Virus record (IMG/VR): IMGVR_UViG_3300028048_000106 | Coordinates: 28,188-92,187 of that record | Source of the DNA: a virus | Taxonomy: Duplodnaviria > Caudoviricetes | DNA: 64,000 nt | Direction: 5' to 3' (one strand) | In this document: positions 4,951 through 51,870 of the stretch, piece by piece | Numbering within the stretch: the stretch's first letter is position 1 | How the letters are laid out: each line of letters starts with the position of its first letter | Translations under genes and position numbers: made by a program | The notes under the pieces: generated by a model | The model's input: the letters and a program-made list of their open reading frames with translations, nothing else | The model's database searches: none | What the model was told of the DNA's origin: nothing

Positions 4951-4957
4951 GTAAATA
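4951..4957 (+). promoter_or_regulatory. GTAAATA late-promoter-like motif (representative copy)
   Basis: Same heptamer upstream of genes at 8155, 9910, 14241, 16281, 19609, 27487, 30205, 35346, 35397, 42924, 51846 (+) and 27359, 27393, 29062, 29893, 42768 (-); resembles T4 TATAAATA; gp55 homologue in window. Confidence 0.75.
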
Positions 4958-6300: not shown

Positions 6301-8130
6301 ATGGCACTGAATTGGAATCCTTTTAGAAGACGGACATCTGACTAGACAAGCTAGAACATCTAGAACAACCCTAACTACTAGACATTTGCCTAGGTGAACT
6401 AGGACATTCAAGCAATTGTCAATGCAAAGTCAGTTGTGTCAACTGCAGCAAAAGACTAGAACAGAAGATTTGCAAACCCTTCTTGGCAGACATTCTTTGA
6501 TGGTGAGATACTTGCACTTCCTCTAGCAACAAACAAGTCTGAGCGGATTGACTAGTATAGACGCATCTCAAAGTACAACATCTGTGATTGGTGCTTTGAT
6601 GAGATTGCAGATGACTTCATACATGAAGATGAGAATGGTGACATAGTGAAGCTGTCTGTCCCTGACAGACTGTCAACAATGCAGAAAGACATTCTGCAGA
6701 ATGAGTTCAACAAGTTCATGAACTTGTTCAAGATAAAAGAAGACGGCTACAACTTGATAAAGCGCTTCTTGACTGAAGGAGAGCTTGCGTGGGAGAATGT
6801 CATCAGTCCAGCCCACCCAGAGATGGGCATAATTGGAGTGAAGTTCTTGCCGGCTGAGTACTATGAGACATTGATTGACACATCAACAGCTCGACCTGTT
6901 GGCATTGTCTTTGATGTTGGGTCATTTGCTGATGAGACACGGCAGATGTACAGGAACTCTTTTCAAGGAGCAGCATCTATATTCAATGCGGTGTATCCAA
7001 CACAGTACAAGTTCACTTTCTCAAAAGACACATGCATACCACTGCTGTACAGCCAGATAACATACATAAACTCAGGTGAGTACTCACATGACTTCTTGAT
7101 AACTTATCCATTGATTGAGAAGGCAAAGCAAGCATACTACAAGCTAGCATTGCTTGAAGATGCTGCTGTGACTCTACGTGTGACTCGTGCTCCTGAAAGA
7201 CTGCTGTTCAATGTGTCTACTGGAAGACTTGACTAGAATAGAGCAGATGAGTATGTCAGACGGTTTGCAAACAGCTTGCACTCAAAGAAAGTTGCTGCAA
7301 ATGGTGGGCAAGACATTGTCAGCACATATTCACCAATCACAATGTTGAAGTCATATATCTTTGGCAAGTCATCTGACTCAGAAGGGACAACTGTAGAGTC
7401 TGTTGGCTCATCAGCTGACTATGACTAGCTTGCTGACATTGAGTACTTCTTGAGAGCATTCTTGAAGATGTTCAAGGTGCCATTCTCTCGCTACAAGACA
7501 CCAGAGAACACAATTGAGAAGAATGATGCTATACCATATGAAGAGTACTCATTCAGCCGTATGATAATGCGCTTCTAGAGAAGATTTGCAGAAGGCTTCA
7601 AACGCGGATTCATAACACACTTGAAGCTTCGTGGACTTTGGGACAAGAAAGACTATGGACTAAAAGACTCTGACCTGCAAGTCAACTTCACTGCACCTGT
7701 CCTCTATGACTTGTATGAGAAGTAGAAGTTGACAGAGGCAAAGATGGCAATCTACAAAGCTTTCACTGACAATGATGAGATGTCTAAGTCACTGTGCATG
7801 AAGAAGTACTTAGGCTGGTCAGATGAAGAGATAAAAGAGAACTACATGTCATTGATACTTGACAAGCAGTGGACTGCTGTTGCTGACATGATGAGCGAGC
7901 GCATATCAGATGAGAACCCACCCGTTGACATAGAGTCTCCTATGAAGTTGAAGAATGACGTTGACAAGCTAGAGAAGAGCATAGGAGGCTAGGACAATGC
8001 CAATAGCGAAGAGCCATCTAGTGGAGAAGCAGAAGGTGGAGAAGAGGCAGAGTCAAGTGAAGAGCCATCTAGTGAAGAGAAAGAAGAGCCAGCAAAAGAG
8101 GCTGAGACTCCAACGTTTGGCCTTGGCTAA
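6301..8130 (+). CDS. Portal protein (T4 gp20-like), TAG-recoded
   Basis: One frame with only TAG interruptions; YRRI...FDEIADD, LLEDAAVTLRVTRAPERLLFNVSTGRL, DIEYF...FKVPFSR motifs. Confidence 0.9.
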
Positions 8131-8169
8131 GAGCCTTAAGTGGCATTCTGCCAAGTAAATAGAAATGCA

Positions 8170-8420: not shown

Positions 8421-9086
8421 TCATTCACTTTTGCTTTGGCTGTCTAGTATCTTAGTTATCTAGTCTACACTCCAGTTTTTCTTTGATGTCTCAATTGCAT
8501 CAGCATCTATGCTTTTAGGGCCTTCTTTTGCCAACATCAACTCTTTCTACAAGTCAGCTTTGTACCGTAGAAGCTCTTTCTTCTACTCTTTGTCAAATAT
8601 TGCAAACTTGACTTTGTCTACAAAGTTCTACTTGTCACGATAGACTCCTATGAACTCAGCTATGCTTATGTGGATGCTCTCTACAAGCTTGCTGTATGCC
8701 TAGACTGCTTCAGAGTCTATCAAGGGTGTTGCCAGAATGCTTGAATGGACGTGCCTTATGACATCTTTAGACAAGTCAATGATATCTTCTAGCTCCTTTA
8801 GAGAATGGTCCATTGACACCATCTGCACAGACAGCTCTGACATAGGCATAGACATGCACGTTGGCATAGCTGATATCTCAGCCATCTTGTCATGCATGTC
8901 TTGCTCTATAGATGACAACTAGTCAATTGCTGACAATGCAGCATCTTTAGTTGGCACTGCGCTACTGAGAGAAAGACTGTCTAGAAAAGTGTCAATGTCT
9001 TGTCCACCAGTTATCCCAAACACAGCATCAAGCTTCTCTTGCTGTGTTGCAATGTGTGGAGTGCTCTATCTACTGTTGTCAGTCAT
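8421..9086 (-). CDS. Helical hypothetical protein, possibly small terminase (gp16-like), TAG-recoded
   Basis: Open from ATG 9086 to TGA 8421 with only TAGs; coiled-coil pattern; gp16 similarity is weak. Confidence 0.45.
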
Positions 9087-9717
9087 TCTATGATCCACTC
9101 ATTGAGTCATCAGAGCCAATGTACTGCCTAATGTAGTTGTTCAAGCTTGACTTAGGGTCAATCCCTTGATATGTCTCAAGCTCTGACAACAGCTGCTTCA
9201 TGACTTCTTTTCTTATGTTCTACTGCTTGTAGTGCTTTGTTATAGTTGATATGTATGCATTCCAAGCACATGTACTGAAGTATGCAAATGGATTGTTGAA
9301 CTCAAAGTTGTAGTTCTTGAGGCCTTTTATTGCTTTCACAAAGAAGAACCCCTTTGCATCTTCTTTCAACTCTTTAGAGTAGTTTCTGAACTCACTTCGA
9401 TTGAGCATCTTGTCAGCAATTGCCATAAGCATCCTGCCAAGCTCTTCTGACAGGATGCGGTCTTCTACTTTCTTAGCTGAGTCACGCCACTTGACTAACT
9501 CTGCATGTAGTTCAGCTGATGTGCAGTAGAACCTCTCTTTGTTCTTTGGCTCAAGCTCTCCTGCTGCAGCTTTCTTAGCTTGTCTTTCTCTCTATATCTT
9601 CAGCTTTATGGCTTGTTTTTCAGCAAGTGTCAACTTCTTTGGCTGTTCTTTTTTCTACTTCTACTATTGCTTCTAAGTCTTCTTTGTAGACACATCAATA
9701 GTCTACTGCTTCATCAT
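9079..9717 (-). CDS. Late-transcription sigma factor (T4 gp55-like), TAG-recoded
   Basis: SEELGRMLMAIADKMLNRSEFRNY...NNPFAYFSTCAWNAY; 5 TAG in first 21 codons. Confidence 0.85.
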
Positions 9718-9815
9718 TGCACACATATATTGTCTTTCTTTGATTTAAAGGTATAAAGGTATATACTTATATAGAGATATTGTACACCGCTTTTGGCTAT
9801 CTCTAGATTTTTTTT

Positions 9816-9853: not shown

Positions 9854-9949
9854 CCTAAGTGAACTCTATACTTAGCTAAAGACTGAGCATCTTTCTTGCT
9901 TGCCTAAAAGTAAATAAACGCTGTTAACAACTTATTTAGCATAAACACT

Positions 9950-11209
9950 ATGGTAGACATCCGCAATGAGATAGACAAGATTGTCTTAGTAGAGTCATTT
10001 TCATCAAAGAAGCCACACATTTTCAATGATGACAAGACAACATTCAAGCAGTTGAAAGACTTGTTCACTAGCATATTTGACTCACGAGTCATAAAGTTCT
10101 CAAGAAAAGTCCCTAAACTAGACGCATATTTGACTGTCAAAGATGGCAATTGGTTTGTGTCATCTTACCTTAGGCCAGAGCAGCAGTACCCTATTGGCAA
10201 TGCCTCAAAGCTGCATGAGTCTGATGCTGACTCAAAAGATGCTGTCTAGAAGACATTTGACAGCATTGTTGAGTCACTTCAGTCTATTGACCCTGTGCTA
10301 TTGAACAGGTTCTTTGCAAATGGCAGCAACCGCCTGCACATACTGCTAGTGTGCCCACCAGATGGATGCTCTAAGCTGTATGGTGGAAAGTGCTTCACAG
10401 AGTATGGTGGCATTGACTGCTTCAATGATGGCAAATGCGTAGGTGATGACAAGAAGTCTAGCTTTGAGCTGTATAAGATATTGAAAGCTTGCCCAACACT
10501 GAAGTGCGAGTTTGCTGAGTTGACACCTGAACAGCTCACTGCAATAAAGTGCTGCAAAGATGAGAGAGCCATTCTAAAGCAGCTAGTTGACTAGTTGGCA
10601 AGACTAGTTGACGGCATTGGCTGGGGATGCTCAATACGTGACTATGTGCAAGACCGCTACTCTCGCTATCTAGTCAACAAAGCGCTTGAGCACAATCTTG
10701 ATGTGTCAAAGAAAGGAGCACTTGTTGATGAGCTTACATCTCGTCTAAGTGGGACATCAACTCTTAGGCCAACTAAGTCTGACCTCGCAACATTTGCAAA
10801 ACGTGAAGGGATTGATGTCAAGTCAGACGACTACAAGGCGTTTCTTGATGACATTGAGCAGAATGCGGCAATGACAAACAAAGACATCATGTCTCCAATT
10901 GAGAATGCAATATACTTTGCAGTGTCAAACATTGTCCAAGCACTGCTAAGCTACATCAGTCTTGACCCTAACCCAAAGGCAAAGAAGCTTGCACAGTAGA
11001 CAGCAAGAGACTTGTTTGCTGCATGTGACTCTATTGAGAAGTGCTCTTTTGACAGCAGCAAGCTAGATGGAATGAAGAAAGCTCTTGCAAAGCTGTGCTC
11101 TTACAAAGAGTTTGCTCCAAAAGAAGTCAGGTTTGTCAACAATGGCATTCCATACACTGTGGCATGCGAATGTGAGAAGCTTGATGCAATGTGCAAGACA
11201 ATTGCTTGA
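9950..11209 (+). CDS. Hypothetical late protein, TAG-recoded
   Basis: Four track ORFs in one frame joined by TAGs at 10247, 10592, 10997; GTAAATA upstream. Confidence 0.7.
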
Positions 11210-13260: not shown

Positions 13261-13309
13261 GCAGCTATGAAAGTACAATATCTTCATCTACATAGATGAG
13301 GATATTTGC

Positions 13310-14239: not shown

Positions 14240-14255
14240 AGTAAATACTGTCTAT

Positions 14256-14979: not shown

Positions 14980-16284
14980 ATGATAATTATAGACTAGCAA
15001 TAGCTTCATTGCAATGTGTATTTTGTGCAAAATCATGATGCTGTTGAGCAGTTGATTGACTTACTCAACAAGCACAAGACTAAATATGGCGCAATGCTAC
15101 AAGCGAAAGGACGAAAGTCACAGCCAAACTGCAAATCAAAGCACAGGATGCTGTATGAGTAGATAGTCCAAATGCTGCCAAATGCTGCAAATGGCATAAG
15201 TATTGCTGAAAAGTGCTATTGGATCATATATGGCTTGATAGATTTTCCAAAATGCGAAATATGTGGAAAAAGCCTTTCATCAAAGCAGTTTGTTAGCCTA
15301 CGCCATGGATATCGAAGATGCTGCTCAATGAAGTGCAGAGGGAAAGACCCACAGTATAGGCAGCATTTGTCAAATGTATATTGCCGTATGGTTGAACGTG
15401 ATCCACTAGCAGTAAGCAAGAGGTCATTGAAGTCATTGTAGACTAGAAAAGACAAGTATGGTGCATACTGCCCAACGTCATCATATGACAAGATGAGAGC
15501 AACTCGAAAGCAGAAGCAAGAAGATGACCCAAAGTACATTAGCAGAATTGTTGAGAAAGCGCATAGCACTAATGTTAAGAATGGACATCCTCCAACGTGG
15601 AACAACTCAGACAAAATGCGTAAGACACGGCTAGATCATAATGGTGGCCAATGGGAGACAGACTAGACACTAAGCCATAGAAAGCACAATGCTATGCTGA
15701 AGTATGGCGTTGATGATGCAAACAAGTCAGATGCTGTCAAACTACGGAAAGCACAAGCATTTGAGTCTCGGTATGGAGCTGGTGTCACGTGTGTGTTCTA
15801 GACAGATGAATTCAAACGCCATATGGTAGAGATATCTAGTCAACGAAAGGAAAAAGAGCACGCAACAAAGAAGCAGAATGGCACGTTTAACACATCTAAG
15901 CCAGAAGAAGAGTGCTACCACATGCTGCATTTTGCCTATCCACACATTATTCGGCAATACCGCTCAGAAGCATATCCATTTGCATGTGACTTCTATGACC
16001 CTGACTCGCATACATATTTTGAGTACAATGGCTCATGGACTCATGGCGGGCATTTCTTTGACAAGACCAATGCTGCTGACATAGAACAGGCTGTCAAATG
16101 GAAAAGCAAAGGCACAAAGTTCTATATGAATGCTCTCTACAATTGGACAGTCAGAGATGTCAAGAAAAGAGAGACTGCAGAGAAGAATAGCCTGAACTAT
16201 GTCGTGTTTTGGTGTCTTGATGAAGTGAGAAGACATGTCTTAGATGTTTTGAATGGCATATGGTTGTGCATGGTGGCGAAGTAA
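14980..16284 (+). CDS. Free-standing homing-endonuclease-like protein (Zn ribbon, KYG repeats, C-terminal PD-(D/E)XK/Vsr-like nuclease), TAG-recoded
   Basis: PKCEICGK, CSMKC, KYGV repeats, YPFACDFY...FEYNGSWTHG. Confidence 0.7.
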
Positions 16285-16328
16285 ATAAAGTATGTTGTAC
16301 AACATATAGAAACTTAAGGAAAAAAACA

Positions 16329-19514: not shown

Positions 19515-19643
19515 GATAAGCCTTTCTAGATAAAATATACAGCATTTGAAAGTGCAGTGAATGCGCGATGATGAAGTCTAGAAAGTGATGAAGTCTAGAT
19601 AGAATAAGGTAAATAAACACAGTATAAGTAACAGATACAGTAT

Positions 19644-23238: not shown

Positions 23239-23514
23239 TCATCTAATGTACCTTATGAAAGTTGAGTTCTGTCTTGGAATGGCTCTCAATAGCCATAGAT
23301 ATTGTATTGTCTCTGGCATCCGCTCTAAGGCCAAATAGTTGTCTAAGACAGTGCTTCTGACTCTAGAGTCTGTGCTCATTGTCAAGTACCGTCTTACCAT
23401 GAATGGTGAAGCATCTTTGAAGTTCTCAGATGAGATGTGCTCTCTGTAGAGCTCAATTGACTTTGTCTGCAAGATGTTTGCAAGAACATCAAAAAGCATG
23501 TTAGACCTTGCCAT
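23239..23514 (-). CDS. Clamp loader small subunit (T4 gp62-like)
   Basis: SPFMVRRYLTM...QYLWLLRAIPR; directly downstream of gp44 homologue. Confidence 0.65.
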   Translation of the reverse strand: MARSNMLFDVLANILQTKSIELYREHISSENFKDASPFMVRRYLTMSTDSRVRSTVLDNYLALERMPETIQYLWLLRAIPRQNSTFIRYIR

Positions 23515-23571: not shown

Positions 23572-24531
23572 TCATCTTTCCATCCATTTTGCAATGGCTG
23601 TCAGCAAGCCAAAGAAGCCACTCTCTTTGTCAATGACAGTGTTCAACTGGAACAGCAGGTCTGTCATCTTTAGTATTCCATCTAAGTCAACAACAATGCC
23701 AGTGTCAACAACATGCTTGTACAATGCACTTCCAAACTCAACATAGTCACTTATCTTGTCTTTCTCAGACAGATAGAACTTCCTGACTTCAAGCATGCTT
23801 CTAGTTGTCTTGAGCTTGTCAACAATGGCATCTAGCAGCTCATTCTTCTCAGACTCAGCAACTTTGTTGAGATTGACAACAAGCTCTCCTGTTGTGCAGC
23901 AGAACTGCAGGTAGTTGATGATTCTTCTGACATCTGGATAGTACTGGAAAGCTTCTTCAATGAAAGCTTTCACTGAGTCTCTTGTGTACTTGATGCCTTC
24001 ACTGTCAAGGATCTTCTTGACATGGATGAGAAGGTCTTTCTTGTCAAACTTGAGAGGGATGACTGGGCAACGAGACAGAAGAGGGGCAATTATCTTCTGC
24101 AAAAAGTTCCCAGTTATCAAGAACCGCGTGTCATCTTGTGCAGCCTCAATCAATGTCCTAAGCGCTTGCTGGAAGTTGTTGCCTCCTCCTGCACTCGCTG
24201 AGTCTACTTCATCAAGTATGACAACTTTTATCTTGCCTTCCATTGACAATGCATTGCAGAAGTCTTGGATCTTTGTCCTAAGGACATCAACGGTGCCATC
24301 TGTTGCACAAGGCACAAACAGCACTTGTGCATCAAGCTCATTGCACAGTATCTTTGCAAGTGTTGTCTTTCCTGACCCTGCTACTCCAATGAGGCTTAAG
24401 TTCTGAAGTGACTTCTTGTCAATCATTGACTTGAAGTACTTCTTTATGTCTTCACCCAAGACATACTCACTAAGGCACTTAGGGCGGTACTTGTCTACCC
24501 AAAGCTCTGTCAATGTGCTATTGTCTTCCAT
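23572..24531 (-). CDS. Clamp loader AAA+ subunit (T4 gp44/RFC-like)
   Basis: LWVDKYRP, GVAGSGKTT, ILDEVD, SRC, PDVRR. Confidence 0.92.
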   Translation of the reverse strand: MEDNSTLTELWVDKYRPKCLSEYVLGEDIKKYFKSMIDKKSLQNLSLIGVAGSGKTTLAKILCNELDAQVLFVPCATDGTVDVLRTKIQDFCNALSMEGKIKVVILDEVDSASAGGGNNFQQALRTLIEAAQDDTRFLITGNFLQKIIAPLLSRCPVIPLKFDKKDLLIHVKKILDSEGIKYTRDSVKAFIEEAFQYYPDVRRIINYLQFCCTTGELVVNLNKVAESEKNELLDAIVDKLKTTRSMLEVRKFYLSEKDKISDYVEFGSALYKHVVDTGIVVDLDGILKMTDLLFQLNTVIDKESGFFGLLTAIAKWMER

Positions 24532-25533: not shown

Positions 25534-26142
25534 TCAGTCTTCTTCAACAAGCTTTGTTGTTGGGAACATCTTTCCTGCATGCAAGTCAGCAAGAAGCTGT
25601 TTCTGCTCATCTGTCAAGTTCTGCTCAAGCTTCTTTGACTCTTCATCAGCTTTTTTCCAATACTCAATGCTCTTAGGGTCTAAGTTGGGGTCATAGTATG
25701 TCCCATCGGGCTTGCTGACTCTATTCAGCAGTGACTCTATTGTCTCAGTAGGAGCCCACTCAACGTCAAGATGCTGCCTTTCTGTACTGCTGTTTGGGTC
25801 ATTCCAATACCCTTGGTCTTTCCACTTCTTGTTGGGGTCATATATGATCCTGTGCTTCTTCAAGTCAACTATGCTTCCATCATTGAGCTTGAACAGCGGA
25901 GAGTCACCAAGAAATCCAAAAGCTGGCATAGGGCCATTGAAGTAAGGGATGTCTTGATTTGGGACAGTGAGCTTTGCACTTGCTGTTGGATCATATGGCC
26001 TAGCTTCAGGGACAGTCAAGTGTCTAGCACTAGACTGCTTGTCTACAGCAAAAGCCTTCTAATATGGCTGCCCATATGCAAAATTCCTAAAGCGACTTTG
26101 GTTTAAAGGGTTTGCAAGAGGATGCGGATTTGTGGCTGTCAT
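25534..26142 (-). CDS. Hypothetical protein (one TAG)
   Basis: Extends to ATG 26142, 6 nt after TACAAT. Confidence 0.6.
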
Positions 26143-27353
26143 AGTGATATTGTATCATAAAACATAAACTATTTATGTTTCAGCTTTTGTGAAGAGGGAC
26201 AATAGGCTCCTCTTCGTAGAATGTTTATAGCTGCGTTAGTGTCTGCATCTATATCCAATCCACAAGAGCAGTGGTAGTGCTCACCTTCTCGGTTTGCCTT
26301 TATCACCGCACCACATTTTGAGCAAGTCTGGCTTGTGTAAGCTGGATCAATCTTAGTCAACGTGAAACCTTCACTTTCACTAAGTGACTCCAGCTTGTCA
26401 ATGACTTGCCTATAAGACCAATATTGAAGCTTGTTGTTGACTGACTTGTAGAATGAAGACTTGTGCTTCACGTTCTTCAAGTCTTCACAAACTATGTCAT
26501 AGTCTTGATGCTCTTCAACAAACTTCTTTGTCAGACGATTTACTTCATTTTCTTTGAATTTCAAGAGCTTTTGGTATTTCTTTGACCCTCTCTTCTTGTT
26601 TGTCAATCTCTTATAGATGTCAATTAGCTCTTTTCCATAGAACTTCCCATTTGAGTCAGCAATCAACTTGTGGTAGCCAAGGTCAATTCCAATCTTCTTT
26701 TGGTTGTCTTTCTTCTTTGCATCTTCCTTTTCATATATGAAGTTCAAGAAGTACTTTCCATTGATTCTTTGCAATTGAACTGACTTCTTCCTCTTCCAGT
26801 CTTTGAACTTCAAACTATGTTTATGGTGCTTGATTGGCAAGCAGATTGTCTTTGCTCTTTTCTTTCCTTCTTTGAAGATTGGCAAGAAAATCCTGACAAA
26901 CATGTCAAACTCTCCATCATCACATTCTTCAATGTCAAAGAGATTCTCGTTCAACATTATTGAGATGTTCTTCAAGTCAAACTTCAGTCTCTTCAGATAA
27001 TTGATGTTGAGTTCGTGGAAATGTTTGTCAGTGAAATTCTTGAACTTGTTGTTCTTCAAGCACCATCCAAAAACCTTCTTGTATTTTCCAAAGACTCTTT
27101 GTCTAAGATTTGCTAATTGACTTCTGACAATTTCACTCGCATTCTTGTATACAAGCTACTTAAAACGCGAATGCTTAATTGCACACTCTGGACAGTCTTT
27201 AGTTGATAGATACTGCTTGATTGGCAACTGTCCTCTTTTGATTAGCTCAAGATAAGTCTTCAAAGATGACTCGTACAAAGCAAACATCTAGTCAAGATCA
27301 TTTGTCTTAACTTGGTTACAAAACTTCAAACTATGCTTGCTTGTTCTTGTCAT
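26139..27353 (-). mobile_element. tnpB: TnpB RNA-guided endonuclease gene #1, TAG-recoded, no TnpA
   Basis: GIDLG, VCEDL, TSQTCSKCG, CSCG, DADTNAAINI; N-terminus MTRTSKHSLKF reached through 2 TAG. Confidence 0.85.
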
Positions 27354-27517
27354 ATATCTATTTACTCTTTAAGAATATGTTTCTGATATTCTTATTTACT
27401 CAAATCAACTGCAATTCTTTGCATGATTTATGCTGTTTATGCAATTCAATTAGTTTATCGCTTTAAATACATTCTACACATGTGAGGTAAATAAAGACAA
27501 AGTAGAGGTCAACAACA

Positions 27518-29052: not shown

Positions 29053-29071
29053 TTGTAGATATATTTACTTT

Positions 29072-29884: not shown

Positions 29885-29926
29885 ACATTGACTATTTACT
29901 TCAATGCATGTTGATTTGCCTAGCTG

Positions 29927-30181: not shown

Positions 30182-30220
30182 AGAGATATTGTACTGCCAA
30201 AAAAGTAAATATTGACTACC

Positions 30221-35303: not shown

Positions 35304-36714
35304 CAAGATCACATCCTTTTAGGGAGTGATTCACGTGCGAGAAGAGTAAATAAGATATGAAACAACATTAAGTCAATAGATTTCCAAGTCAAGAGAGTAA
35401 ATAAGATTGCAATGAGCAGAGGACTCCATACAGAAGAAGAGAAGGCAAAGATAAGAGCTAGCAAGCAAGCTACAGCTCTTAGGCACTCTTCTATGGATGC
35501 TAAAGTCTATGAGCTCAAGATTGTTGAGAGAAGACTTAACAAACAGCAGAAAGAACAACTTGAATTACTATTCTTAGAAGGAAAATGGTTCTACAACCAC
35601 ATTCTTTCAGAGAAGAAGAAAAGAGAAATCCCACTTCATTGCATTAATCCAACTCACTATAAAGACATCTTAAAACTAGACAAAGACAAAAATAAAGTCT
35701 CATACAAACTCCAAATTCTTCCTTCTCACTTCAAGCAGACAATCCACATGAGGATGATTTCGAATGAGAAGACAATTCGTTCATTGGTGAAGAAAGGCTT
35801 GCAAAGATATGGTAGCCTAAAGTTCAAGTCTGAGCTTTCTTGCATTCCACTGAAAGGGATGGACTGGAAGTTCAAGAGTATGCGAAAAGTTTGGATAATG
35901 GGAATCAAAGGACAGATCTTAGTTAGAGGAGTTGAGCAGATTCCAGCAAATTCAGAATTTGCAAATGCAAACTTGCTCAAGAGAGCAGATGGGTATTTCC
36001 TGAAAGTCACAACATACCAAGAGAGGAAAGAAAAACAAAATAATGGAAAGGAAATCGGTCTTGATCTTGGGATCAAGACGTCAATAACTACTTCTGAAGG
36101 TGAGAAGATAGACATATCTATTGAAGAAAGTGATCGACTAAAGAGACTTCAAAGAGAGATGTTTCGAAGAGTCAAAGGATCAAACAACAGATGGAAGACT
36201 ATCAAGAAACTACGGAAAGCCTATCAGAAGCAGACAAACAAAAAGCAAGACAAAGCAAATAAGATTGTGCATAGACTAAAGGCATATGACCGAATCTACA
36301 TGCAAGATGAGAACATAGCTGGATGGCACAGAGGAATGTTTGGAAAGCAGGTGCAGCACAGCTGCCTTGGAATGGTCAAGTCAAAGTTGATGGCATTGCC
36401 TCAGACAGTTGTCCTTGACATGTTCATTCCAACAACCAAGCTATGCCCTAAGTGCCATTCAGTGAAGAATGACATGACACTTGCAGACAGAGTGTATGAA
36501 TGCTCATGTGGATATCATGAAGATCGAGATGTGCATGCAGCAAAGAACATGATAAACATTGCAAAGTCTTGCTTTGAGAATCATTTAGTACCGGCGGAAC
36601 ACCGGGAAATCACGCTCACGGAGTTCAAGGCCGCTGTTGCTGATGAGATACTCAGCAGCAAGCCTGGACAAAGAAGTGAGAAGATCATACCTTTTAAGGT
36701 GTGATAGAGTTCAC
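35304..36714 (+). mobile_element. tnpB: IS200/IS605-family TnpB-only element #2 (CDS 35412-36704)
   Basis: GLDLG, QDE, PTTKLCPKC, CSCG, DRDVHAAKN; subterminal hairpins ATCACATCCTTTTAGGGAGTGAT (left) and ATCATACCTTTTAAGGTGTGAT..TTCAC (right). Confidence 0.88.
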
Positions 36715-41438: not shown

Positions 41439-42859
41439 GTGAACTAGTCACACCTTGAAAGGTGTGATCTTCAAGTGTTCTTCCTTGCATCTAGTGCAAT
41501 CACTTGATTTTCTTGCTTCAATGTCGGTAGTTTCACGAACACAATTTGTATCATGTTCGCCAGAGCTTCCAACTCCACAAGCGTTTATTCCCGACGTCCC
41601 ATCGGTATTCTTCATAATGTCTCTCAAAGCAAAGTTCCTTATGTTGATAGCTGCATTCAAGTCTCTATCTATTATTATACCACATTCTGGGCATTCATAG
41701 ACTCGGACATCTAATGGCATCTTCTGTCTATGTCCACAGCAATGGCATATTTGGCTTGATGCTTCAAACCTTCCAATCTTCTTGAAGATCTTGCCTTCTC
41801 TCATTGCTTTGTAGTTCAACATAGACGTAAACATGTGCCACCCTAAGTCTGAGACCTTCCTGCCCCAAAGCTTCTTCATCCCTTGCAGACTCAAGTCTTC
41901 AATGCAGAAACAGTCAAATTGGCTTTCTTTGACTAGTCTTGTTGAAGTCTTGTGCAAGAAGTCTTTTCTTTGGTCAGCAATCTTTTGATGAATTTTTGCA
42001 ACTTTCCTTCTTTGCTTCTCTTTGTTCTTGCTTCCTTTTGTCTTCTTGCTTAGTTTTCTTTGTTCTTGTGCTAGCTTGTCTAGCATCTTTTTGAAATATT
42101 GTGGATTGTCAATCTATCTTCCATCTGACAATGTCAAGAAGTGCTTTAAGCCAAAATCAATTCCTAGAGCATTCTTCTTGTTGATGTTGATGTCATCGAC
42201 TAATGGTCTAAAGTCATCCTTTGCATGCACAATGAACGACACATAGTATTGTCCAGAAGAGTTTCTCGAGATTGTTGCTGTTCCAATCTTGCCTTTCTTG
42301 ACTTGTCTTGAGATCTTGACTTTGATTCCATTCTTTCTTGAGAACTTTGGCATCTTGATCTTTGACTCTTTGAAGTCAATCTGGAAATGTTGAGGGATCT
42401 CAAATGAGTCTTTGTCAAACTTCTTTGATTTGAATCTCGGGAAATTTGCTCTACCAGCAAAGAAGTTGTTGAATGCTCGGTCAAGATGGCCAACCGCACA
42501 TATGAGACTCTGTGAGTTGACTTCATAAAGCCAAGGATTTGCTTCTTTGAGTTTTACAGTCTCACCAGAACAACCCAAGCCAATTGAGTTTAAGTACTTC
42601 TATTGAGATGCATATCTTTCTTGATTGAGATGAAGAGCCCAATTGTACATGAAACGAACACAGCCAAAATGCTTAGAAAGAAGAACTTTCTACTCACTAG
42701 TTGGATATATTCGAAATCTATATGTCTCAATCATTTGGTAATAGAGATATTGTACGTTTTACAGTTTTATTTACTCAAGACAAATCATAAACTTCACATG
42801 TATTTCATAGAAAATTCTAGGCAATTCGTATCACACCCTAAAGGATTTGATGTTTCTTG
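41439..42859 (-). mobile_element. tnpB: IS200/IS605-family TnpB-only element #3 (CDS 41448-42734, TAG-recoded)
   Basis: YRFRIYPTSE[Q], FGCVRFMYN, GIDFG, IEDL, SSQICHCCG, CPECG, DRDLNAAINI; hairpin ends. Confidence 0.9.
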
Positions 42860-50718: not shown

Positions 50719-51849
50719 ATGTCTGCTAATAGAAGTCCAGCATTTCCAGTTTCTTCTCTTCATCCTTTTTTGTCTAAGCCATCTAAGTTTGTTTAGATGT
50801 TGACTCCAGAAATATTAGCAGATGCCGCTAGGAAGTGCGCACGTGGAGTTAGGTGGAAGACATCAGTGACTACATGGATGTTCAACTTAGTCTAGAACTG
50901 CAATAGACTTTGTAGAAGCATCAAGACAGGCACATACAAGCTCTCTAAGTATATTGTGTTCAAGACATTTGACAAGAAACCACGCATTATACACAGCACT
51001 AGGTTTTCAGACAGAGTGGTCTAGATGGCTATGTGTGATAATGGACTTCTTGAAGACCTTTGCAGACCATTGATATATGAGAATGGAGCATGCTTAGAAG
51101 GAAAGGGCTTCACATTTACATTCAACTTAGTCTCTAATCATCTGAGGAAATTCTATTTGCATGAAGGCCAGCATACAAATGCCGGTTGGTATGTCAAAGC
51201 TGATGTCAAGAAGTTCTTTGACAGCACTCCTCACAAGATTTTGAAGAATTGTGTTGCGAAGACTTTTAAAGATTCTTGGATGATTTAGTAGGTGGATGAC
51301 ATCATTGATTCGTTCAACATCAACGATACTAATGAAAAAACAGATGGATTTGGAACAAGAGGTGTTGGCCTTGGCAGCTAGATAAGCTAGCTGCTCTAGA
51401 TTCTAGTCCTCAACGGCTTAGATCATACGATGAAGCAGAAGTTCAAAGCCAAGCACTACATAAGGTACATGGATGACATCTTAGTCTTGGTTGAGTCTAA
51501 AGACAAAGCTAGCGCAGCTTTATGTGAGATCAGGCATCAGCTGGAGCAGATAGGCTTGGAACTGAATGCTAAGTCGAGAATAGGACGAATACAAGATGGA
51601 TTCACATTCTTGAATGTCAACTTCAGGTTGACGTCAACAGGCAAAGTGAAGAAGAAGCTTGGAAAAAAGACTATTAGAAGAGAGCTAAGCCGGTTGAAAA
51701 CTTTAGCACGCAAATTGAAATCTGGGCACCTATAGTACAGAGACTTCTTGCAACATGTCAATAGCTGGTTTGGGTCTAACATATGCAAAATGTCTAGAGG
51801 CTAGGTGAAGTTTTTGAGAAGAGCTATATCAATCTGTCTGCAAAAGTAA
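50719..51849 (+). CDS. DGR reverse transcriptase, TAG-recoded
   Basis: KPRII, DRVV[Q], ACLEGKG, KADVKKFFDS, GVGLGS[Q]IS[Q], RYMDD, FTFLN; start codon uncertain. Confidence 0.92.
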
Positions 51850-51870
51850 ATACTATAAGAGGATTCACAT

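What the first reader, a model, noticed from the sequence alone, without database searches (positions are those of the whole stretch)
9079..9790. Late sigma factor behind a 'TAG gate'
The gp55-like gene has an early-type TACAAT box upstream (about 9779-9784), but carries 5 TAG in its first 21 codons (including TAG TAG AAG TAG) in a Lys/Gln-rich N-terminal extension, with few in the conserved core. The portal gene similarly has 6 TAG in its first 34 codons. Inference: the master regulator of late transcription cannot be made until amber decoding is efficient, which would couple the code switch to the whole late programme at a single checkpoint.
Basis: partly seen in the sequence, partly recalled or inferred. 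Interest (0 to 1): 0.8.

Follow-up and report, generated by a model that had tools for sequence, protein, structure and literature searches.

The report
Late sigma factor needs amber read-through
In this fragment of a large phage that reads the stop codon TAG as glutamine, the gene for the T4-type protein that should switch on late genes has six TAGs before its working part, as in all relatives checked, so it cannot be made until TAG is being read; whether this placement was selected as a timer is not proven.

Summary
Window 9079-9726 (-) encodes a 215-aa gp55-type late sigma factor. The evidence is PHROG 234 at E=1.3e-18, T4 gp55 PDB 7d7c_F at E=1.3e-12, and 7d7c_F as top Foldseek hit. TAG sits at codons 8, 18, 21, 22, 24, 45, 169 and 213.

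Six TAGs lie in a clade-specific N-terminal extension of about 57 residues that T4 gp55 lacks. No ATG, GTG or TTG occurs between codons 33 and 98, so at least TAG45 must be decoded.

In 30 relatives, 29 have at least one TAG before the core (43 per 1000 codons against 5.3 per 1000; Q-shuffle p=4e-5). A sigma-70-like TAYAAT box upstream is also common.

The pattern is not one unique checkpoint. Across 36 recoded genes of the contig, TAG is twice as dense in codons 1-50 while CAA and CAG stay flat (p=5e-5). Late genes carry their own TAGs, and 13 of 30 relatives also have a late-type GTAAATA box before gp55.

Dependence of late sigma on the code switch is well supported. Selection for a gate is not proven. 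No suppressor tRNA lies in this fragment, which is about 34% complete.

The general model is published (Borges et al.). A recoded late sigma and the 5' bias were not found in the papers searched. Earlier notes of this scan report the same wiring on other genomes.

The parts
9079..9726 (-). gp55-type late sigma factor gene, 215 codons, 8 in-frame TAG, ends with TGA
9655..9705 (-). Cluster of five TAG codons (codons 8, 18, 21, 22, 24) in a variable K/Q-rich tail. It contains TAGAAG/TAGAAA hexamer repeats.
   Evidence: AlphaFold2 pLDDT is below 50 for residues 1-27. The tail is not alignable among homologues.
9547..9636 (-). Conserved basic extension (codons 31-60, predicted helix 34-54) that T4 gp55 lacks. 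It holds TAG45 at 9592-9594.
   Evidence: Nearly invariant columns K31 to K61. Helix. In the TAG45 column, 11 homologues have TAG and 18 have Gln.
9112..9546 (-). Sigma core homologous to T4 gp55 residues 9-118 and beyond. TAG169 is at 9220-9222; TAG213 (9088-9090) lies in the C-terminal tail just past this range.
9776..9784 (-). TACAATATC box, a sigma-70-like -10 element with no canonical -35, 53 nt upstream of the ATG
   Evidence: The family occurs 8 times in the window against 0.57 expected. TAYAAT is conserved upstream of gp55 in relatives. The consensus -35/-10 scan did not call it.
9759..9770 (-). Degenerate late-type box, ATAAGTATATAC. It differs at 2 bases from GTAAATATATAC, found at the same place in relatives.
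9910..9916 (+). GTAAATA late-promoter-like box for the divergent gene 9950-11209
6301..8130 (+). T4 gp20-type portal gene with 13 TAG, six of them in codons 15-34 (6343-6402)
   Evidence: Portal homologues have 30 TAG per 1000 in the first 60 codons against 9 per 1000 afterwards, with a recurrent TAG near codon 16.
8421..9098 (-). Conserved gene of unknown function overlapping the 3' end of gp55, 7 TAG. The start is more likely the ATG at 9086.
   Evidence: (PHROG 9704). Its N-terminus is seen downstream of gp55 in L001 and L002.

Best explanation
The gene encodes the T4-gp55-type sigma factor of a large T4-like phage in which TAG is read as glutamine.

Shown: the protein can only be made if TAG is decoded. 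Six TAGs precede the sigma core. Five lie in a disordered, fast-evolving K/Q-rich tail and one lies at an invariant Gln of a conserved basic helix. No alternative start lies downstream.

Shown: this arrangement is kept across the clade while the individual TAG positions turn over.

Inferred: the mRNA is made from a sigma-70-like TAYAAT promoter by host RNA polymerase, or with the TAG-free phage sigma-70-family factor. It therefore appears before late transcription, and its translation aborts after 7 to 44 codons until a suppressor tRNA (not in this fragment) is active.

Inferred: yield scales roughly as per-codon read-through efficiency to the 6th-8th power. That makes sigma output a steep function of suppressor activity, and early placement keeps abortive products short.

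Inferred by homology: the sigma factor then opens GTAAATA promoters, the counterpart of T4 TATAAATA, in front of terminase, tail tube, adaptor and other TAG-bearing genes. The result is a feed-forward circuit in which the code switch is needed both to transcribe and to translate late genes.

The gp55 gene and the portal gene are the extreme cases of a genome-wide 5' bias of TAG.
For: Identity as gp55. TAG positions. No ATG, GTG or TTG in codons 33-98. The Leu32 codon is CTN, TTA or ACC in 18 of 26 homologues, and TTG there occurs at the genome's Leu-codon frequency of 25%. TAG read as Gln: in the TAG45 column 11 homologues have TAG and 18 have Q. Clade conservation: 74 TAG in 1724 extension codons against 26 in 4939 core codons; 29 of 30 homologues have at least one TAG before the core; Q-shuffle p=4e-5, and p=5e-4 for 13 sequences below 65% identity. 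Genome-wide bias: TAG 34-37 per 1000 in codons 1-50 against 14-18 per 1000 later, while CAA+CAG stay flat at about 25 per 1000; p=5e-5, and p=4.5e-4 without gp55 and portal. The bias survives trimming of starts (p=5e-4). Neighbouring genes in relatives show a gradient from 28 to 8.6 per 1000. Portal homologues show it too. Promoters: GTAAATA 17 against 4.06 expected, 20 of 21 copies just upstream of same-strand genes including terminase, tail tube and adaptor. TACAATATC 8 against 0.57 expected. TAYAAT upstream of gp55 in 22 of 30 relatives. Replication genes are TAG-free and virion genes TAG-rich. The T4 late promoter is TATAAATA at -13 to -6 (PMC1524935).
Against: No suppressor tRNA or release factor is in the 92-kb fragment or in six related fragments, so the order of events is untested. 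The TAG share of Gln codons in the gp55 5' region equals the genome's 5' average. At conserved Gln columns the TAG share in the extension is, by hand count from the column table, only slightly above that in the core. Most of the excess therefore sits at unconstrained K/E/Q positions, where AAG, GAG or CAG becomes TAG in a single step. The local cluster contains TAGAAG repeats, which could arise by slippage. Thirteen of 30 relatives also have a late-type GTAAATA box upstream of gp55. Late genes carry their own TAGs, so gating sigma is partly redundant. An unrelated recoded phage (phAss-1) shows only a weak 5' trend, p about 0.02-0.08.
Confidence: 0.55

Rival explanations
1. By-product without regulatory design. 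gp55 is simply expressed after the code switch. TAG codons drift into the unconstrained, disordered K/Q/E-rich tail through single-step changes and slippage. Selection against costly premature termination removes TAG from cores and gene bodies. The dependence on amber decoding is real but was not selected as a timer.
For: The five clustered TAGs lie in residues 1-27, which have pLDDT below 50 and do not align among homologues. In TAG columns the other residues are mostly K, Q and E. The TAG share in the gp55 5' region equals the genome-wide 5' average. The 5'-to-3' decline of TAG is general across genes, as expected if the cost of a nonsense error rises with position. TAGAAG repeats are present.
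Against: CAA and CAG are flat along genes while only TAG doubles at 5' ends. 29 of 30 homologues keep at least one TAG before the core despite turnover of positions. TAG recurs at conserved Gln columns of the structured helix. Among genes behind TACAAT-type boxes, gp55 is the outlier with 8 TAG against 0-3 for the others. The gp55 core (TAG share 0.16-0.18) avoids TAG more than late-gene bodies in the same relatives (0.23-0.31).
Confidence: 0.35
2. Dose limiter rather than timer. Even after the switch, read-through stays below 100%. Eight TAGs then hold the sigma factor at a low steady level, and the position near the start only keeps waste small.
For: The genome-wide decline of TAG along genes implies imperfect decoding. 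Regulators are usually needed in small amounts (established knowledge). The base after TAG is A in 54% of cases, the context known to favour suppression.
Against: The portal, terminase and other abundant virion proteins carry as many or more TAGs. Nothing measures read-through efficiency.
Confidence: 0.07
3. The TAG-rich tail is not translated. Translation starts downstream of the cluster, at TTG codon 32 or later, so the cluster is 5' UTR.
For: Codon 32 is TTG in this phage and in five relatives, and ATG in two. One database homologue was called from that codon.
Against: Eighteen of 26 homologues have a non-start Leu or Thr codon there, and TTG occurs at the background Leu frequency. Residues K30-K31 upstream are conserved. 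The upstream frame is open except for TAG in all homologues, back to an ATG that in many relatives follows a purine-rich AAGGA/GGAG-like stretch. Even from codon 32, TAG45, TAG169 and TAG213 must still be read.
Confidence: 0.03

Closest known systems
T4 gp55 late sigma factor (PDB 7d7c chain F; PHROG 234), acting with gp33 and the gp45 clamp on TATAAATA promoters
   Same: Sequence and fold homology hold over the core. A short -10-only motif, GTAAATA, sits just upstream of virion genes. The genomic setting is T4-like, with a gp20 portal, clamp loader and large terminase.
   Different: This protein has a 57-residue N-terminal extension absent from T4 gp55. The gene contains 8 codons that are stops in the standard code. 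The motif begins with G rather than TA. Dependence on gp33 and gp45 was not examined.
Stop-codon recoding as a post-transcriptional regulator of late and lytic genes in gut phages (Borges et al., bioRxiv 10.1101/2021.08.26.457843; Lak phages, PMC6784885)
   Same: TAG is read as Gln, early and replication genes are compatible with the standard code, and structural genes are recoded. The logic is the same: late proteins wait for the suppressor machinery.
   Different: Those papers discuss lysis, structural and integrase genes. 'Sigma' and 'N-terminal' do not occur in the preprint, and Lak sigma factors are mentioned only in passing. Here the recoded target is the transcription factor for the late class, and TAG is biased to the first 50 codons.
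bldA tRNA-Leu(UUA) and TTA codons in Streptomyces developmental regulators such as adpA (from my own knowledge)
   Same: One tRNA species limits translation of a master transcriptional regulator and so times a developmental programme.
   Different: There the codon is a rare sense codon in a cellular genome. Here it is a host stop codon reassigned by a virus, and several copies cluster at the 5' end.
Laboratory T4 gene 55 amber mutants grown in suppressor and non-suppressor hosts (from my own knowledge)
   Same: Late transcription is conditional on amber suppression of gene 55.
   Different: In this phage the arrangement is natural, multi-copy and conserved in a clade.

Membership tests
T4 gp55-type late sigma factors | Significant sequence similarity to the gp55 family | tested here: met
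   PHROG 234 E=1.3e-18. T4 gp55 7d7c_F E=1.3e-12, profile positions 63-167 aligned to gp55 residues 9-118. 328 T4-like phage records matched by tblastn.
T4 gp55-type late sigma factors | gp55 fold (region-2-like helical domain) | tested here: met
   The AlphaFold2 model has mean pLDDT 72.7 and about 80-90 in the core. Foldseek top hit is 7d7c_F, E=4.8e-4, probability 1.00, TM(target) 0.63; the next hits have E above 1.
T4 gp55-type late sigma factors | A short, -10-only late promoter (T4: TATAAATA) upstream of virion genes | tested here: inconclusive
   GTAAATA occurs 17 times against 4.06 expected. 20 of 21 contig copies lie 1-60 nt upstream of same-strand genes, including terminase, tail tube and adaptor. 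Recognition by this protein was not tested.
T4 gp55-type late sigma factors | Activation through gp33 and the gp45 sliding clamp, with a C-terminal clamp-binding tail | not tested
   A clamp loader is present at 23572-24531. No gp33 or gp45 homologue was identified here.
Code-15 (TAG read as Gln) recoded phages with late-gene bias | Essential genes are open only if TAG is sense, and TAG aligns with Gln | tested here: met
   Portal, terminase and gp55 are restored under TAG=Q. In one column 11 homologues have TAG and 18 have Q; Q is enriched four-fold in TAG columns.
Code-15 (TAG read as Gln) recoded phages with late-gene bias | Early and replication genes TAG-free, virion genes TAG-rich | tested here: met
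Code-15 (TAG read as Gln) recoded phages with late-gene bias | Phage-encoded suppressor tRNA(CUA), often with RF2 | tested here: inconclusive
   None in the 92-kb contig or in six related IMG/VR fragments. The record is about 34% complete by CheckV.

The most novel reading that the evidence does not exclude
Clusters of reassigned stop codons near the start of a gene are a selected, steep translational gate, with output roughly equal to read-through efficiency raised to the number of TAGs. In this clade the gate sits on the late sigma factor itself. Suppressor-tRNA level then licenses the whole late transcription programme in a feed-forward circuit. The two-fold 5' bias of TAG, with CAA and CAG flat, would be a general design rule of recoded phages that the papers searched do not describe.
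Probability: 0.35. Interest if true: 0.8.

Novelty: new variant of a known kind. Interest (0 to 1): 0.6.

Why it matters
Recoding as a brake on late genes is so far a correlation between gene class and codon use. A recoded late sigma factor provides a concrete, testable link between the translational code switch and the transcriptional cascade.

The 5' bias of TAG is a quantitative signature. It implies either imperfect decoding or selection on codon position. It can be checked in any recoded phage genome and in reporter assays using standard amber-suppressor strains.

It also matters for annotation. Gene callers that start gp55 at Leu32 or Met99 miss a conserved N-terminal extension.

Tried and rejected
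I used 35 loci from IMG/VR and metagenome scans instead.
- blastn against phage records found nothing. A single-protein scan of viral contigs found nothing.
- I looked for a suppressor tRNA in the own contig, in six related virus records and in large metagenome contigs, which are not held. None was found.
- RF-1/RF-2 domain search of the own contig: none.
- A closer relative found through its portal (G005, 70% identity) has no gp55 near the portal or anywhere in the record.
- TTG at Leu32 as the true start: rejected.
- 5' TAG excess as an artefact of over-extended starts: rejected. It survives trimming to the last ATG within 30 codons and dropping the first 10 codons.
- 5' AT-richness for initiation as the cause: rejected. 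CAA is not enriched over CAG in codons 1-25, and the TAG excess reaches codon 50.
- The consensus sigma-70 scan did not call the TACAAT box, because there is no -35.
- Generality test in phAss-1 (OQ749652, first 100 kb, 18 recoded genes): only a weak trend in the same direction.

Full report
**What is there**

The window is the right-hand 64 kb of a 92,187-bp virus record. CheckV rates the record about 34% complete. Long frames for a T4 gp20-type portal, a large terminase, a tail tube, a head-tail adaptor and many others open only if TAG is read as sense. All 106 crude gene calls end in TGA (68) or TAA (38); TAG was treated as sense when calling them.

Replication and nucleotide genes carry no TAG. 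These include the clamp loader, exonucleases, a polymerase fragment, an epimerase and a dehydrogenase. This is therefore a TAG-recoded, T4-like large phage. Its relatives come from metagenome records that appear, from their accession series, to be rumen or gut samples (sample metadata not checked), on contigs up to 432 kb.

**The gene**

Window 9079-9726 (-) encodes 215 residues. It matches PHROG 234 'late sigma transcription factor' at E=1.3e-18 over residues 61-188. tblastn matches the late sigma genes of 328 T4-like phages at about 30% identity. A family profile matches T4 gp55 in PDB 7d7c chain F at E=1.3e-12. An AlphaFold2 model finds 7d7c_F as its only significant Foldseek hit.

The profile alignment starts at T4 gp55 residue 9. 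The first 57 or so residues here are therefore an extension that T4 lacks. More than 250 database homologues share it. In an alignment of 30 of them, residues 31-60 form a nearly invariant basic segment, predicted as a helix at residues 34-54. Residues 1-30 are a variable K/Q/S/T-rich tail with pLDDT below 50.

**The observation**

TAG is at codons 8, 18, 21, 22, 24, 45, 169 and 213. TACAAT is at 9784-9779 on the minus strand.

**Is the TAG-rich part translated?**

- The only ATG, GTG or TTG codons before codon 99 are at codons 1, 4, 5, 12 and 32.
- A start at Met99 would delete the first helices of the core.
- Leu32 is TTG here, but it is CTN, TTA or ACC in 18 of 26 relatives. TTG there occurs at the genome's Leu-codon frequency of 25%.
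- The residues just upstream of Leu32 are conserved.
- In every relative the frame upstream of Leu32 is interrupted only by TAG, back to an ATG that in many relatives follows a purine-rich AAGGA/GGAG-like stretch.
- Even from codon 32, TAG45 must be read. In that alignment column 11 homologues have TAG and the other 18 have Gln.

The sigma factor therefore cannot be made without amber decoding. This step is shown by the sequence.

**Conservation**

I extracted the gene from 30 distinct related loci at 46-79% identity. TAG counts are as follows.

| Region | TAG | Codons | TAG per 1000 |
|---|---|---|---|
| N-terminal extension | 74 | 1724 | 43 |
| Core | 26 | 4939 | 5.3 |

- 29 of 30 homologues have at least one TAG before the core. 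The exception depends on the choice of start.
- Shuffling TAG among Gln codons within each gene gives p=4e-5. For 13 sequences below 65% identity it gives p=5e-4.
- The TAG share of Gln codons is 0.49 in the tail, 0.35 in the conserved extension and 0.16 in the core.
- TAG positions differ between sub-clades, so the pattern is maintained through turnover.
- This window's gene, with six TAGs before the core, ties for the highest count.

**The bias is not special to gp55**

In the 36 recoded genes of the contig, TAG density is 34-37 per 1000 in codons 1-50 and 14-18 per 1000 afterwards. CAA+CAG stay at about 25 per 1000 throughout.

- The excess is significant against a within-gene shuffle of Gln codons: p=5e-5, and p=4.5e-4 without gp55 and the portal.
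- It survives trimming of starts (p=5e-4 for all genes; p=0.004 without gp55 and portal).
- gp55 and the portal are the two extremes, with six TAGs each in the first 50 codons.
- Genes next to gp55 in relatives show a gradient from 28 to 8.6 per 1000.
- Portal homologues have 30 per 1000 in the first 60 codons against 9 per 1000 afterwards, with a recurrent TAG near codon 16.
- Recoded genes have 44 Gln codons per 1000 against 29.5 in TAG-free genes. The difference is entirely TAG.
- An unrelated recoded phage, phAss-1, shows only a weak trend in the same direction, p about 0.02-0.08.

**Promoters**

Two motifs are strongly over-represented.

- GTAAATA occurs 17 times in the window against 4.06 expected. 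In the contig, 20 of 21 copies lie 1-60 nt upstream of a same-strand gene, including terminase, tail tube, adaptor and several TAG-bearing genes. It resembles the T4 late promoter TATAAATA, placed at -13 to -6 (PMC1524935).
- TACAATATC occurs 8 times against 0.57 expected. It lies 7-53 nt upstream of genes that carry 0-3 TAGs, except gp55 with 8.

Upstream of gp55, a TAYAAT box, often TAYAATAT, is present in 22 of 30 relatives. In 13 of those 30 a GTAAATA box lies between it and the ATG. In this window that second box is degenerate (ATAAGTATATAC).

A TAG-free sigma-70-family gene lies at contig 1375-2142, with a TACAAT box 66 nt upstream.

The likely cascade is inferred, not shown:

1. TAYAAT promoters are read by host RNA polymerase or the phage sigma-70-like factor.
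2. gp55 mRNA is made.
3. gp55 protein is made only when TAG is decoded.
4. GTAAATA promoters open. In some relatives this would include positive feedback on gp55 itself.

**Mechanism and its limits**

Dependence of late sigma on amber decoding is shown. The rest is inference: that the dependence sets timing, that the six to eight TAGs make output a steep function of suppressor activity, and that early placement limits waste.

The main rival is that TAG simply drifts into an unconstrained, disordered K/E/Q-rich tail. AAG, GAG and CAG each become TAG in one step, and the cluster contains TAGAAG repeats. Under this rival, TAG is removed from cores because premature termination costs more there. 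By hand count from the column table, the TAG share at conserved Gln columns of the extension is only slightly above that in the core. The TAG share in the 5' region of gp55 equals the genome's 5' average. Both points fit this rival.

Several observations argue against pure drift:

- CAA and CAG are flat along genes while TAG doubles at 5' ends.
- At least one TAG before the core is retained almost universally.
- TAG recurs at constrained Gln sites of the helix.
- gp55 is the outlier among genes behind TACAAT-type boxes.

Both readings imply that TAG decoding is imperfect or conditional, and that property is what makes a 5' cluster a throttle.

The suppressor tRNA, its promoter and any release factor were not found in this or six related fragments.

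**Known or new**

The model that stop-codon recoding delays late and lytic proteins is published (bioRxiv 10.1101/2021.08.26.457843). That text contains neither 'sigma' nor 'N-terminal'. The Lak paper mentions sigma factors only in passing. A 2026 jumbo-phage survey does not mention them. Three full-text searches found no paper on a recoded late sigma or on a 5' bias of recoded codons. That is absence of a hit in the held library, not proof of absence.

Earlier notes of this scan report amber- or opal-bearing late sigma genes and 'early amber' patterns on other genomes. I treated these as leads only.

I file the finding as a new variant of a known kind.

Noticed in passing
window 4951-4957, 8155-8161, 9910-9916, 14241-14247, 16281-16287, 19609-19615, 27359-27399, 27487-27493, 29062-29068, 29893-29899, 30205-30211, 35346-35403, 42768-42774, 51846-51852: GTAAATA, usually preceded by purines, is a candidate late promoter. 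It occurs 17 times against 4 expected and almost always lies just upstream of a same-strand gene. In about half the cases it ends 5-10 nt before the ATG. By analogy with T4 (motif at -13 to -6) those mRNAs would be leaderless or nearly so.
   Followed up: partly
window 9776-9784(-), 13274-13282(+), 23298-23306(-), 26146-26154(-), 30185-30193(-), 42746-42754(-): The TACAATATC(T/A)CT family is a second promoter-like class. In several copies the ATG follows 4-7 nt after the TACAAT hexamer (TACAATATCTCTATG, TACAATATCTATG). gp55 is the exception, with a leader of about 46 nt.
   Followed up: partly
L005, L020, L022, L025, L029, L033: 20-40 nt upstream of the gp55 ATG: In several relatives the late-type box in front of gp55 is palindromic or nearly so (GTAAATATATTTAC or GTAAATATTTAC). 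That places GTAAATA on both strands. It could be a bidirectional promoter or a dimeric regulator site.
   Followed up: no
G000:C1:1375-2142 (about 26 kb left of the window): A TAG-free sigma-70-family gene (PF04542, E=1.3e-16), 255 codons, with a TACAAT box 66 nt upstream. The phage therefore carries two sigma factors, of which only the gp55-type one is recoded.
   Followed up: partly
all 36 recoded genes of the contig: The base after an in-frame TAG is A in 54% of cases (33% after CAG, 46% after AAG). The base before TAG is C in 46% of cases (24% overall). The +4 A matches the classical context for efficient amber suppression, but NAG codons in general also show an A bias.
   Followed up: partly
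window 26139-27353(-), 35412-36704(+), 41448-42734(-): Three genes match PHROG 506 'transposase', which I take to be TnpB-like (not checked). Each is preceded by one or two GTAAATA boxes. Two of them carry three TAGs each and one carries none.
   Followed up: no
window 8421-9098(-): A conserved gene of unknown function (PHROG 9704) overlaps the stop of gp55 and carries 7 TAG. Its N-terminus appears in the same position after gp55 in distant relatives, so it is a candidate partner in late transcription.
   Followed up: no
L037+L038 (phage phAss-1, OQ749652, 1-100000): In this unrelated TAG-recoded phage, TAG density is 33 per 1000 in codons 1-25 against 14-20 per 1000 later (18 genes, p about 0.02-0.08). 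A 5' bias may be widespread but weak.
   Followed up: partly
whole contig: Gln codons total 44 per 1000 in recoded genes against 29.5 per 1000 in TAG-free genes, while CAA+CAG are about equal in both. TAG codons are therefore added on top of normal Gln usage, often at K or E positions.
   Followed up: partly
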